Part shown: piece by piece, positions 32,341-35,130 of the stretch
Layout of the letters: the number at the start of each line of letters is the position of its first letter
Position numbering within the stretch: position 1 is the first letter of the stretch
Virus record (IMG/VR): IMGVR_UViG_3300012667_000202
Coordinates: 1-37,503 of that record
Strand: one strand, 5' to 3'
DNA: 37,503 nucleotides
From: a virus
Lineage: Duplodnaviria > Caudoviricetes
Notes under the pieces: model-generated
Told to the model about the DNA's origin: nothing
The model's input: only the letters and a program-made list of their open reading frames with translations
The model's database searches: none
Program-made: the position numbers and the translations under genes

Positions 32341-33600
32341 TTAATAGCCAGCAATTACATCCATAGCTTCCCAGTCATCTTCGTCATCGTCTGCGAAGTA
32401 ACTGGTCACCGCCAATTGGTCAATATAGCTTAAAGCGTCTGGTAAGTCGTCATGTACTCCAGCAGTAGGGAACATCAACAACTGGTCAACAAACTCATCA
32501 AAGTCTTCTTCAGCATTCAGAACAACTCTGCCATGCTCAAAACGACCCTGTAAAGCCCAGACAACCCTGTCTACCTTTTTCTTGTTACCGTGCGTCAAGT
32601 CTGCAATATGTGCGTAGCAGTTGTTCTTTCGCATCAAATCACTGAGGTACGGTAACACTGCATTCTTCAAAGCACCTCGTTCAATACCGACTGCCATTGG
32701 CTCATATTCTCTGATGTTCTTTAAGATGTTCACTGCAGTGGTCTGAATATCCCAACGACCAGCTTCAATCTTATCCACATACCATACACCGTCATCAGTG
32801 ACTTTAACCACAGCAATTGCTGATTGGTCAAGTCTCTTTTTACTGTTACCAGCAGATTTAGCTACTTCTTCAAAACCAGCTAAGTCCACTGCGATGTACC
32901 AAGAACCATGAGGCGGCTCTTCACCAAACTTAATCCATTCTTCTTTGAACAACCCTGCACCAGCGTTGTTGAAGGAAGACATATATTCTTGATTGAACGC
33001 AAAGCTGGACAGAGTCCTCTTAGCCGCTTCAATCTCTTTCTTGTCTATCGTCTCATTGTCAGCCGTGGTAAAGTGCCAAGACTTCCAATCTTCATCTTCT
33101 CCACTTTGCCCTAATTGATACCAGTCATAGAAGTGGTTTCTTCCTGACGGAGTAGAGATAAACATGGCTCTACCTTTTTTGTCAGACAAAGCAGCACGAA
33201 GCACCTTCTCCCAAATCTCTGGCTTAATAAAAGCTACCTCGTCCATTACCAAGTATGTCAAAGACACACCACGGAGAGAGTCTTGGTTATCAGCACCACG
33301 AACTAATATCTTACGACCATTAACAAGAGTAATCTCTAAATTGTTAATGTGTGCAGACTTGATAATAGGACGACCTAAGTCCATCAACAAGTCCCACATA
33401 ATTGTTCTTGCTTGTCCGAGTGTCGGTGCAACGTACATAACGCTACTTCCCTCTGGACAATTCAAACCTTCAATCAACAGCGTTACTGCAGATAATCGTG
33501 ACTTACCGCAACGACGACCAGCAGCAATGACCTTAAATCGTGTAGGGTCTTTGAAGACCTCTTTCTGCCAATTCAGCAATGCGAAGTTGAGTTCAGCCAT
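32341..33600 (-). CDS. terL: Terminase large subunit
   Basis: Walker A AGRRCGKS, Walker B LVMDE, ISTPSG, nuclease VDLAG and HDDLPDA. Confidence 0.96.
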   Translation of the reverse strand: MAELNFALLNWQKEVFKDPTRFKVIAAGRRCGKSRLSAVTLLIEGLNCPEGSSVMYVAPTLGQARTIMWDLLMDLGRPIIKSAHINNLEITLVNGRKILVRGADNQDSLRGVSLTYLVMDEVAFIKPEIWEKVLRAALSDKKGRAMFISTPSGRNHFYDWYQLGQSGEDEDWKSWHFTTADNETIDKKEIEAAKRTLSSFAFNQEYMSSFNNAGAGLFKEEWIKFGEEPPHGSWYIAVDLAGFEEVAKSAGNSKKRLDQSAIAVVKVTDDGVWYVDKIEAGRWDIQTTAVNILKNIREYEPMAVGIERGALKNAVLPYLSDLMRKNNCYAHIADLTHGNKKKVDRVVWALQGRFEHGRVVLNAEEDFDEFVDQLLMFPTAGVHDDLPDALSYIDQLAVTSYFADDDEDDWEAMDVIAGY

Positions 33601-33988
33601 TGCTTGTATCCTCTACATCCGTAATACTAGCTTCAATGACTTCTGCAGTTTCTACAGTCGGACTACTGATACCTGTAATGTTAATACTAATCTGTGGAAC
33701 TGAACCACCCTGTTTATCCTTGTCAAAGTAAGACAAAGGTAATACCCTGTCAATACACATCTTAAGAGCTGCACCCTGAACTGGATGCCCATCCGTCATG
33801 GCAATCTCTACAATCTTATTAATGACTTTATCGCCTGTGGTTGCTAACAACCGTGCTTTCAACTCTGCTATACGACCTGAATCACCAGCAGGTCTACCGA
33901 CCACACCCCTACTGCCCTTCTTCTTAGCTTTGACAGCAGCTTTAGGAGGTCGTCCTTTACGGACTTTTACTTCGTTAGTGTCAGACAT
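33593..33988 (-). CDS. terS: Terminase small subunit
   Basis: GRPPK/GRPAG, ALKMCIDRVLP, ISINITG; directly upstream of terL. Confidence 0.75.
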   Translation of the reverse strand: MSDTNEVKVRKGRPPKAAVKAKKKGSRGVVGRPAGDSGRIAELKARLLATTGDKVINKIVEIAMTDGHPVQGAALKMCIDRVLPLSYFDKDKQGGSVPQISINITGISSPTVETAEVIEASITDVEDTSNG

Positions 33989-34054
33989 CGTATCCTTTAC
34001 CCCAACTAAGGGAAGACAAATTAAAAACTTTAAGACCTATATATCTATATAGAC

Positions 34055-34078
34055 TCTATCGTTAGATTGTTTCTTGAT
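34055..34078. repeat. 24-bp repeat, inverted copy of 1182-1205, inside the late leader
   Basis: TCTATCGTTAGATTGTTTCTTGAT. Confidence 0.9.
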
Positions 34079-34218
34079 ATCGCTATCAACTTATTTATAA
34101 GAGGTTACTACTTCTTGTTGTTCGTAACCTAACCTACGGTAGTCTCTATATGGTGTCTCCCGACAGGGGGCTTTATAGATACTATATAGTGTGTGTTGCT
34201 GTTTGTTCAATGTAGGCG

Positions 34219-34247
34219 AGTGTAGCATACTTTTGAGAGTTTGTCAA
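34219..34247 (-). promoter_or_regulatory. Late-arm sigma70 promoter with extended -10
   Basis: TTGACA-17-TACACT preceded by TGc; ~225 nt leader to terS. Confidence 0.8.
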
Positions 34248-34349
34248 GCATTATTTTATACTTTATAGACCTAAAGAGCACAGCGGACCTTCATAGGCTT
34301 TATTGGTACTCCGCATGACCTAAAGTGTGCAATGTCCATCACAGCCTTT

Positions 34350-34364
34350 ATAACTTTTAGTTAT
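34350..34364. promoter_or_regulatory. LysR-type operator-like palindrome
   Basis: ATAAC-N5-GTTAT (T-N11-A). Confidence 0.45.
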
Positions 34365-34395
34365 GACATTGTCATTGTTCATTATAGTTCTTTAT

Positions 34396-34408
34396 TATCA
34401 ATTAGTTA
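34396..34408 (+). promoter_or_regulatory. IHF site
   Basis: TATCAATTAGTTA = WATCAANNNNTTR with A/T-rich 5' flank. Confidence 0.55.
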
Positions 34409-34511
34409 CTAACTATCATTGGTGCAGTGCAGTATTGTCTATTTTACCTCTTTTGTGAGCTGTAGAGCCTACCACAACATTACAACAACACAGCCACCCC
34501 CACCCCCCTAT

Positions 34512-34531
34512 GTTAGTTAGTGCTTACTTAC
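34512..34531. promoter_or_regulatory. SlmA-binding-site-like palindrome 1
   Basis: GTTA-GTTAGTGCTTAC-TTAC; core fits GTnAGYRCTnAC. Confidence 0.6.
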
Positions 34532-34550
34532 ATCAACATAGGCTTTATAG

Positions 34551-34570
34551 GTTAGTAAGGACTCACTTCA
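34551..34570. promoter_or_regulatory. SlmA-binding-site-like palindrome 2
   Basis: GTTA-GTAAGGACTCAC-TTCA; core 10/12 to GTGAGTACTCAC. Confidence 0.6.
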
Positions 34571-34582
34571 CAGGTCATCACA

Positions 34583-34602
34583 GTTAATGATAATCATTCT
34601 CA
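34583..34602. promoter_or_regulatory. Fur box 1
   Basis: GTTAATGATAATCATTCTC, 17/19 to GATAATGATAATCATTATC. Confidence 0.8.
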
Positions 34603-34659
34603 ATTACATAGGGTGTGTATGGCAGTGATGCACCTCTATTGACATACCTAGCCAATTGA

Positions 34660-34679
34660 CTAAGTGAGTAGCTACTAAC
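34660..34679. promoter_or_regulatory. SlmA-binding-site-like palindrome 3
   Basis: CTAA-GTGAGTAGCTAC-TAAC; core 9/12 to GTGAGTACTCAC. Confidence 0.5.
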
Positions 34680-34707
34680 ATCACAGACTAGATAGACCAT
34701 AGCTAAA

Positions 34708-34727
34708 TGATAATGATTCTCATTAAC
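34708..34727. promoter_or_regulatory. Fur box 2
   Basis: Reverse complement GTTAATGAGAATCATTATC, 17/19 to consensus. Confidence 0.8.
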
Positions 34728-34767
34728 TCTTATATAAGACATAAGATATAAGACAAATAACATAAGA
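34728..34767. promoter_or_regulatory. SdhR (GntR-family)-like operator/ATAAGA repeats
   Basis: TCTTATATAAGACATAAGA followed by further ATAAGA units. Confidence 0.55.
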
Positions 34768-34855
34768 GTCTGAGCTGAGGGATATAACAAAAGGTAATAA
34801 GCTATATAACTTTAAAGTCTAAAGAAATGAAGATTATTTGTGGTTTAGGGTGTTT

Positions 34856-34888
34856 TTGTAAGATAACTGTAAGTTTCATGTTGATAAT
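34856..34888 (+). promoter_or_regulatory. Candidate early promoter with OmpR/PhoB-type direct repeat in place of -35
   Basis: TGTAAG-N5-TGTAAG (11-bp period), then GATAAT 9 nt downstream. Confidence 0.45.
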
Positions 34889-34938
34889 AGAGGGTAAGCA
34901 ACACAGTTAAACAACACACATACACAGGAGTTTTAAAC

Positions 34939-35130
34939 ATGAACAAACTAGAACAGAGCAACATGATACAGACCATTGTAAAAGGCTACATGGCTGACAT
35001 TAACAACCCTAAGACATTGGCAGAGATTAACGACATACTAATAAACCATTTTTACACAATGGCTAATTCACCCTCTGAAATCTCCTCAACATACTTTGAG
35101 GAAGAGTATCAGATTTGGGCTAACAAATAA
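34939..35130 (+). CDS. Early hypothetical protein
   Basis: ACACAGGAG RBS. Confidence 0.75.
   Translation: MNKLEQSNMIQTIVKGYMADINNPKTLAEINDILINHFYTMANSPSEISSTYFEEEYQIWANK

What the first reader, a model, noticed from the sequence alone, without database searches (positions are those of the whole stretch)
34340..34890. Non-coding array of host regulator operators: a possible DNA decoy or host-state sensing platform
Seen: within ~550 bp lie a LysR-type palindrome, an IHF consensus, three SlmA-like sites interleaved with two Fur boxes, an SdhR-like site, a second LysR-type pair and an OmpR/PhoB-type repeat. Most are 150-500 bp from the likely early promoter, too far for simple repression. None of the cognate proteins is phage-encoded. 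Three non-exclusive inferences follow. (a) Amplified phage DNA titrates host repressors (Fur, SdhR) to derepress iron uptake and the TCA cycle, acting as an auxiliary metabolic element with no gene. (b) Host proteins coat the first-injected DNA end for protection or disguise. (c) Host status is integrated into early transcription.
Basis: partly seen in the sequence, partly recalled or inferred. Interest (0 to 1): 0.85.

Follow-up and report, generated by a model that had tools for sequence, protein, structure and literature searches.

The report
Swappable host-protein pad at phage ends
In this uncultured freshwater phage, the stretch predicted to form both tips of its DNA is packed with look-alike docking sites for bacterial DNA-binding proteins, and its relatives fill the same slot with different, unrelated sites, so the phage likely coats its DNA ends with borrowed host proteins before it has made any of its own.

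Summary
The motifs are real, but they are probably not one 550-bp platform. Two 17/19 Fur boxes and three SlmA-type 20-mers are unique in the genome. In relatives the gap has two conserved anchors, a C-run (ends 34508) and a second motif (34610-34636), 72-250 bp apart (119 of 126 gaps). Contig ends pile up at the second anchor (10 of 85; 3.0 expected). Anchor profiles also mark the mapped terminal-repeat ends of cultured phage ICBM1. So about 34475-34627 is probably the direct terminal repeat, and the LysR and IHF sites lie at the virion's other end. Close relatives swap Fur for DnaA boxes, sigma-54-like or REP-like repeats in the same slot; others carry LexA, NtrC, IclR-like or parS sites. 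Phage-derived matrices find recA, umuD, glnA, aceA and origin-proximal sites in a genome of the likely host genus. Best reading (0.5): occupancy matters, not identity, giving a borrowed protein coat on the ends. A Fur/TCA decoy is not supported as the general function. Binding is untested; the host link rests on one co-binned contig.

The parts
32341..33600 (-). terminase large subunit
   Evidence: PHROG 2, E 2.6e-45
33593..33988 (-). probable terminase small subunit, first late gene
   Evidence: position upstream of terL and conserved across the clade; no family hit, so the name is inferred
34219..34247 (-). sigma-70-like promoter facing terS (predicted late promoter)
   Evidence: 10 of 12 match with extended -10; similar sequence seen by eye in relatives
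34350..34364 (.). LysR-type palindrome; predicted to lie inside the right genome end
   Evidence: not kept in closest relatives
34396..34408 (+). IHF consensus about 100 bp inside the predicted right-end repeat; possibly part of the packaging site
   Evidence: exact match; 27 of 126 gaps; role inferred
34470..34511 (+). anchor A1: conserved lead-in and C-run (34497-34508); predicted left terminus at about 34469-34476
   Evidence: near-invariant in close relatives, C-run kept to 52% TerL identity; contigs start 37 and 40 nt before the C-run end; profile's best hit ends at nt 32-33 of ICBM1 and ICBM2
34475..34627 (.). predicted direct terminal repeat (about 150 bp) holding the variable site cassette
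   Evidence: not shown by reads
34512..34531 (.). SlmA-type site 1, 3 bp after the C-run
34551..34570 (.). SlmA-type site 2
34583..34601 (+). Fur box 1, in the slot that relatives fill with other sites
34610..34636 (+). anchor A2; predicted right terminus at about 34621-34648
   Evidence: 119 of 126 gaps, 0 of 119 control stretches; contig-end pile-up; ICBM1 repeat ends 6 nt before the matching position
34660..34679 (.). SlmA-type site 3 (left end only)
34709..34727 (-). Fur box 2 (left end only)
34728..34753 (.). GntR-type ('SdhR-like') site
34857..34878 (+). OmpR/PhoB-type direct repeat at the -35 position of an inferred early promoter
   Evidence: the promoter itself was not found by the consensus scan
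34939..35130 (+). first early ORF, unknown function

Best explanation
The stretch between two conserved anchors (about 34475-34627) is likely the phage's short direct terminal repeat, it carries strong matches to binding sites of host DNA-binding proteins, and relatives swap these for sites of unrelated proteins, so it likely works as a landing pad that coats both DNA ends with whatever host proteins bind tightly. Shown: motif enrichment, the two anchors, slot swapping, matches at the expected genes of a host-genus chromosome. Inferred (about 0.8): terminase cuts near A1 and A2, so the cassette sits at both ends and the A1 end, followed by the early genes, enters first. Inferred (about 0.9): host proteins bind these sites. 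Inferred (about 0.5): the bound proteins hinder end-loading nucleases such as the host's AddAB and may help hold the entering end until host RNA polymerase engages about 400 bp further in. Turnover of site type would hedge across host strains and physiological states, because Fur, NtrC, LexA and IclR bind only under some conditions (established knowledge).
For: Enrichment in 92 distinct cassettes against dinucleotide shuffles: SlmA-type 104 vs 0.8, DnaA 18 vs 0.2, parS 17 vs 0, LexA 46 vs 3.8, Fur 9 vs 0.4. Sites concentrate between the anchors: SlmA-type 0.06 / 6.21 / 1.20 per kb left, between and after; DnaA 0 / 1.27 / 0.03. The first site starts within 20 nt of the C-run in 79 of 95 gaps that have one. 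Pairs at least 95% identical in the terminase segment keep the 60 bp left of A1 at a median 95% but the interior at 64%, 17 of 44 below 60%. One slot holds Fur, sigma-54-like, DnaA or REP-like sites in five close genomes. Non-regulators are included: SlmA is reported not to act as a gene regulator (PMC3116907, passage); parS and REP-like units are present. Termini; cobavirus repeats are 159-173 bp with a conserved G+C-rich 5' part in two-armed genomes (PMC6775973, passages). One operator at each end plus its protein left 65% vs 3% of linear DNA intact after 15 min of RecBCD (10.1101/2020.07.22.214221, passage). AddA-like helicase-nuclease in 5 of 5 host-genus genomes, below the family cut-off.
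Against: No binding or protection was measured, and no raw reads were available to map ends. Contig breaks can also arise where conserved sequence meets variable sequence in mixed strains. The A2 match holds for ICBM1 only with the 3' half of the profile, and not for ICBM2; their terminases are not close relatives (all isolate hits under 60%). 17 of 112 gaps have no site of the nine classes scanned, and some hold only simple repeats. Sites lie about 35 bp from the predicted left end and 25 bp or more from the right, which leaves room for a nuclease to load; RecBCD can push proteins off DNA (recalled). parS lay beyond A2 in 8 of 8 cases. In the host-genus genome the Fur, LexA and IclR-like matrices gave no more hits than column-shuffled controls, and three motif families had no hit. 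The 12-bp SlmA core was not above its reversed control in most of 61 family genomes. The host link is one co-binned contig, with no further case in 241 genus and 401 order genomes. The gaps are related, so counts are not independent.
Confidence: 0.5

Rival explanations
1. Titration or activation by amplified phage DNA. Many copies of SlmA sites would activate SlmA away from the nucleoid and block cell division, DnaA arrays would soak up the initiator, and Fur or GntR sites would derepress their regulons.
For: Two tandem SlmA sites on a multicopy plasmid give a lethal division block in E. coli (PMC3573117, passages). SlmA-type sites are the commonest a-priori class, 52 of 92 cassettes, usually 2-3 copies. 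The MAG encodes SlmA; the host-genus chromosome has 7 matrix hits, none between 285 and 1540 kb with the terminus near 918 kb.
Against: A specific physiological gain should keep the factor fixed, yet close relatives swap it. Titration does not need the sites to start within 20 nt of an end motif. Fur is in 5 of 92 cassettes.
Confidence: 0.2
2. Host-state sensing. The bound regulators tune early or late transcription, as proposed for CtrA sites (lytic deferment).
For: CtrA sites cluster in terminal repeats and gaps and regulate phage promoters (PMC9437464, passages). The OmpR-type repeat sits at an inferred -35 position in 5 of 5 close genomes. Some relatives have sigma-54-like repeats beside NtrC-like boxes pointing toward terS (by eye).
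Against: Most sites are 250-400 bp from either promoter. SlmA, ParB and REP-binding proteins are not regulators. The signal read would differ between near-identical phages. No integrase or repressor was found.
Confidence: 0.13
3. Roadblock for terminal-repeat duplication or terminase cutting. Any tightly bound protein between A1 and A2 stalls a polymerase or the packaging motor while the repeat is copied from the concatemer.
For: Explains indifference to protein identity and confinement between the anchors. The phage has no RNA polymerase of its own to supply a T7-type pause (recalled).
Against: Many sites also lie beyond A2 (LexA 33, NtrC-like 34, parS 8). Both anchors are defined by sequence, and gaps without recognised sites exist.
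Confidence: 0.12
4. No selected role of the sites: AT-rich palindromes in a recombination-prone repeat, or sites for unknown phage proteins.
For: Several motif families were read off the cassettes themselves, and three have no match in the host-genus genome. Many small ORFs are unannotated.
Against: A-priori motifs exceed shuffles 10- to 100-fold. Matrices built from phage sites rank umuD-type and recA promoters first for LexA, include glnA for NtrC (6 of 6 intergenic, 0 in controls) and rank isocitrate lyase first for the IclR-like motif.
Confidence: 0.05

Closest known systems
CtrA sites in terminal repeats and gaps of Alphaproteobacteria phages (phiCbK-like, vB_BsubS-Delta; PMC9437464, passages)
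   Same: High-scoring host-factor sites concentrated at genome ends, with turnover among close relatives.
   Different: One factor, placed in promoters and read as regulation; large repeats. Here many unrelated factors, including non-regulators, are interchangeable in a roughly 150-bp gene-free repeat.
DnaA boxes in the T5 injection-stop region (bioRxiv 10.1101/866236, abstract and passages; in-silico proposal)
   Same: Array of host-protein sites in a terminal repeat, proposed to act during DNA entry; T5-like terminases are among the best, though weak, isolate hits.
   Different: One factor in a fixed arrangement about 9 kb from the tip, proposed to stop injection. Here sites abut the predicted tip and vary in kind.
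Cobavirinae (Zobellviridae) terminal repeats, ICBM1 and ICBM2 (PMC6775973, passages)
   Same: Two convergent arms, class II ribonucleotide reductase (64% identity), short repeat starting with a C-rich run that matches the A1 profile.
   Different: Terminase, portal and capsid are not close; terS and terL, not tail genes, adjoin the right end; the passages read describe no host-site cassette.
Engineered end protection by scCro on terminal operators (bioRxiv 10.1101/2020.07.22.214221, passages)
   Same: A sequence-specific binder at each end slows RecBCD: the proposed mechanism.
   Different: Synthetic, operator at the very end, protein pre-bound; no natural case shown.
Phage end-protecting proteins (Mu Gam, T4 gp2; recalled)
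   Same: Solve the same problem.
   Different: Phage-encoded proteins rather than DNA sites for host proteins.

Membership tests
Short direct terminal repeat (T7/cobavirus type) | identical repeat at both virion ends, shown by read starts or doubled depth | not testable with these tools
   only assembled contigs were available
Short direct terminal repeat (T7/cobavirus type) | assemblies break at fixed boundaries | tested here: inconclusive
   right boundary 10 of 85 vs 3.0 +/- 1.4, 0 of 150 simulations as high; left boundary only 3 starts, at -40, -37 and -8; strain branching not excluded
Short direct terminal repeat (T7/cobavirus type) | boundary motifs like those of phages with mapped ends | tested here: inconclusive
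   A1 met in ICBM1 and ICBM2; A2 met in ICBM1 with the 3' half only, not in ICBM2; neither in two other records
SlmA-binding sites | palindromic core close to the E. coli consensus | tested here: met
   2-3 mismatches in 12 bp, extended to 20 bp (consensus in PMC3116907)
SlmA-binding sites | host has SlmA, and chromosomal sites avoid the terminus | tested here: met
   SlmA over cut-off in G001; 7 of 7 hits outside 285-1540 kb in G093; 103 vs 34 reversed-control matches in 41 genus genomes, my sum, 2 of them on the phage contig. One genome, and the host is inferred.
SlmA-binding sites | binding by SlmA | not testable with these tools
   needs EMSA or ChIP
Fur boxes | 19-bp consensus match | tested here: met
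   17 of 19, twice (consensus recalled); Fur in 5 of 5 genus genomes
Fur boxes | same motif before host iron genes | tested here: inconclusive
   a hit before feoA, but the matrix was off-centre and gave fewer hits than controls (43 vs 68); not repeated
Lytic-deferment phages (CtrA type) | one host regulator, sites in promoters | tested here: not met
   24 site-type sets (one of them empty) in 112 gaps; sites mostly far from promoters
T5 injection-stop region | eight DnaA boxes in fixed pairs within a long repeat | tested here: not met
   no DnaA box in this cassette; 6 of 92 relatives have them
Cobavirinae | shared terminase, portal and capsid | tested here: not met
   no cobavirus among the listed best hits; all under 60% identity

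The most novel reading that the evidence does not exclude
A large clade of freshwater podoviruses has turned its terminal repeat into a gene-free, mix-and-match telomere-like cap: an array of host-protein sites (SlmA, DnaA, Fur, LexA, NtrC, sigma-54, REP-binding) under diversifying selection that shields the ends from host nucleases at injection, and whose SlmA and DnaA versions later stall host division and replication as phage DNA multiplies.
Probability: 0.35. Interest if true: 0.9.

Novelty: new variant of a known kind. Interest (0 to 1): 0.75.

Why it matters
How linear phage DNA survives host end-processing nucleases before any phage gene is expressed is an open question; the T5 preprint states it directly. 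This cassette gives a testable, gene-free answer with natural variants as built-in controls. It also gives a way to infer hosts and their regulator motifs from uncultured phage ends, and a marker for terminus position in a clade estimated at over a thousand stored contigs. Ten literature searches listed single-factor precedents only. The library lacks most subscription papers, and bioRxiv supplements were not seen.

Tried and rejected
DNA search of the gap in 50,697 phage records: no match. No cultured relative by terL, polymerase, capsid or portal. Sequencing runs: contigs only, best share 0.36, no terminus information. Structured RNA: best Rfam hit E 0.33, below threshold. Promoter scan: 9 found vs 6.3 +/- 2.2 in shuffles. 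My recalled NtrC pattern was mis-spaced and gave 0 of 92; the NtrC-like count (31 of 92) uses a pattern read off the cassettes and is circular. Loose IHF matches in cassettes were barely above shuffles (74 vs 49). Palindromes at 34362 and 34649 are at chance level in relatives (5 vs 4.3 and 6 vs 5.9). The 12-bp SlmA core across 61 family genomes was not above control. Early-gene scans gave few contig starts near A1: 8 of 195 distinct loci had A2 in their first 700 nt, and 3 of 80 GP88-family loci belonged to the architecture. No clade terS in 240 other genus genomes or 400 other order genomes. Left open: a properly centred Fur matrix on the host genome, and a genus-wide test of the commonest unassigned 18-bp palindrome (59 of 92 cassettes, no hit in G093). 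Rows dropped before counts: non-clade hits of the anchor scan, L140, and cassettes with under 200 nt after A1; gaps with under 420 nt after A1 or duplicated; gaps with weak A2 or a short left flank (126 to 112; 108).

Full report
Setting. The window is a 37.5-kb uncultured podovirus-type genome with primase-helicase, DNA polymerase and ribonucleotide reductase on one arm and virion genes on the convergent arm; no RNA polymerase, integrase or regulator was recognised among 65 ORFs. It closes into a circle against a close relative. The finding lies in the gene-free gap 33989-34938 between terS and the first early ORF. Matching runs are freshwater metagenomes. A 4.5-kb contig with a 90% identical TerL lies in a Burkholderiaceae MAG, G001. 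Its genus has genomes of about 2 Mb, and most named SlmA homologs are labelled Polynucleobacter, though the closest named one is labelled Limnohabitans. That single contig is the only direct host link.

Observation. The two Fur boxes match the recalled 19-bp consensus at 17 positions, and nothing else in the genome has fewer than five mismatches. Three SlmA-type 20-mers occur at 34512, 34551 and 34660 and none in the coding 33.9 kb. The IHF, LysR-type, GntR-type and OmpR-type motifs are present and recur in 27, 17, 11 and 7 of 126 distinct related gaps, against 0-1 expected.

Anatomy from relatives. Eight viral scans and one metagenome scan supplied related gaps. They share a C-run anchor (A1), still present at 52% TerL identity. 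A second anchor (A2) was found 72-250 nt further in 119 of 126 distinct gaps and in 0 of 119 control stretches. Between and just after them lies a cassette. In 92 distinct cassettes, hits against five dinucleotide shuffles each were SlmA-type 104 vs 0.8, DnaA 18 vs 0.2, parS 17 vs 0, LexA 46 vs 3.8 and Fur 9 vs 0.4; the SlmA pattern was partly tuned on these sequences, and the cassettes are related. Sites are nearly absent left of A1, densest between the anchors, and begin within 20 nt of the C-run in 79 of 95 gaps that have one; 17 of 112 gaps have none. The interior changes fast: at 95% or more identity in the terminase segment it is a median 64% identical, against 95% for the 60 bp left of the C-run end (44 pairs). 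In five close genomes the slot before A2 holds Fur (window, L204), a sigma-54-like unit (L206), DnaA boxes (L202) or REP-like units (L226) (the sigma-54 label is recalled and assigned by eye).

Are they host sites? Matrices built from phage sites were run over G093, a complete 1.886-Mb genome of the G001 genus. SlmA-type: 7 hits, 6 intergenic (control mean 0.9, maximum 3), none between 285 and 1540 kb, with the skew terminus at 918 kb; E. coli sites likewise avoid the terminus (PMC3116907, passage). NtrC-like: 6 of 6 intergenic (control 0), one before glnA, a core NtrC target (PMC5343134, passage). LexA: the top two hits precede an umuD-type gene and recA. IclR-like: the top hit precedes isocitrate lyase. 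parS: two perfect sites at mnmG near the origin. The REP-like unit lies beside a Y1 transposase gene. The core of the GntR-type site lies between a GntR-family gene and mdh. Against: LexA, IclR-like and Fur hit counts did not exceed controls (the Fur matrix was off-centre), three families had no hit, and the 12-bp SlmA core was not enriched across the family, although the 20-mer was across the genus (103 vs 34).

Where are the ends? Of 85 distinct contigs that enter from terS and stop in or near the gap, 10 stop within -12 to +15 nt of A2; simulation gives 3.0 +/- 1.4, maximum 6 in 150. Three contigs start 40, 37 and 8 nt before the C-run end. Cobaviruses ICBM1 and ICBM2 have two-armed genomes with read-mapped repeats of 172 and 159 bp and a G+C-rich 5' part (PMC6775973, passages). 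The A1 profile's best hit in their first 1.2 kb ends at nt 32-33. The 3' half of the A2 profile scores best at nt 178 of ICBM1, six bases past its repeat end, and has no such hit in ICBM2. I therefore place a repeat of about 150 bp at 34475-34627 (about 0.8). Raw reads were not available, and strain branching could add to the pile-up. If this is right, the LysR and IHF sites lie inside the right end, two SlmA sites and one Fur box lie at both ends, and the rest lies inside the left end ahead of the early genes.

Mechanism. Interchangeability among regulators of iron, nitrogen, SOS and carbon metabolism and non-regulators (SlmA, ParB, REP-binding proteins), with placement hard against the end motif, points to occupancy rather than information. 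I commit to a borrowed protein coat on the DNA ends that hinders end-loading nucleases and may help hold the entering end (0.5). An engineered analogue works against RecBCD (10.1101/2020.07.22.214221, passage), and the genus has an AddA-like protein. Rivals: titration or activation by amplified DNA, most plausibly a SlmA division block, as seen with multicopy sites (PMC3573117, passages) (0.2); transcriptional sensing as with CtrA (PMC9437464, passages) (0.13); a roadblock in repeat duplication or packaging (0.12); no role (0.05). They are not exclusive.

Novelty. Single-factor arrays in terminal repeats are published for T5 (10.1101/866236) and CtrA phages. Ten searches listed no mixed, swappable cassette; PMC10146267 was seen as a listing only. 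Unreviewed notes of other agents describe similar cassettes in other phage genomes; I saw them after reaching this reading, and they are not independent support. What this window adds is the mapping of the cassette onto a two-anchor terminal repeat. Verdict: new variant of a known kind, interest 0.75.

Noticed in passing
L760:1-172 and L759:280-300 (ICBM1, ICBM2): The ICBM1 terminal repeat holds a palindrome at about nt 142-157 that recurs in ICBM2 at about nt 284-298; it resembles a metal-regulator (Zur-type) box (recalled). Cultured cobaviruses may carry a similar cassette and could be used for the bench tests.
   Followed up: no
L074:1396-2265 (-) and 13 other gaps: An ArdC-like anti-restriction protein (ArdcN plus MPTase-PolyVal) occurs in 14 gaps, a median 175 nt after A2; it is absent from this window.
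   Followed up: partly
L462, L436, L437, L636 after the C-run: Two to five sigma-54-promoter-like units; in L462, L436 and L437 mostly pointing toward terS, in L436 and L437 followed by NtrC-like boxes as in an enhancer-promoter pair (by eye).
   Followed up: no
L082, L170 cassette: A tandem pair resembling NrdR boxes (by eye, prompted).
   Followed up: no
L018, L551, L471, L577 cassettes: Simple tandem repeats instead of recognisable sites between A1 and A2.
   Followed up: no
L441 and L484 contig ends: Sequencing adapter left in the assembly; in L441 it begins 78 nt after the C-run, at its A2-like motif.
   Followed up: partly
window 34269-34330: Two copies of a 9-bp unit resembling the short repeats that flank the T7 terminal repeat (recalled); kept in close relatives.
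   Followed up: no
G093:C1:1620143 and L289: A SlmA-type site just upstream of groES recurs in many genus genomes.
   Followed up: partly
L140: A phage with a different terminase has a similar C-run motif, twice.
   Followed up: no
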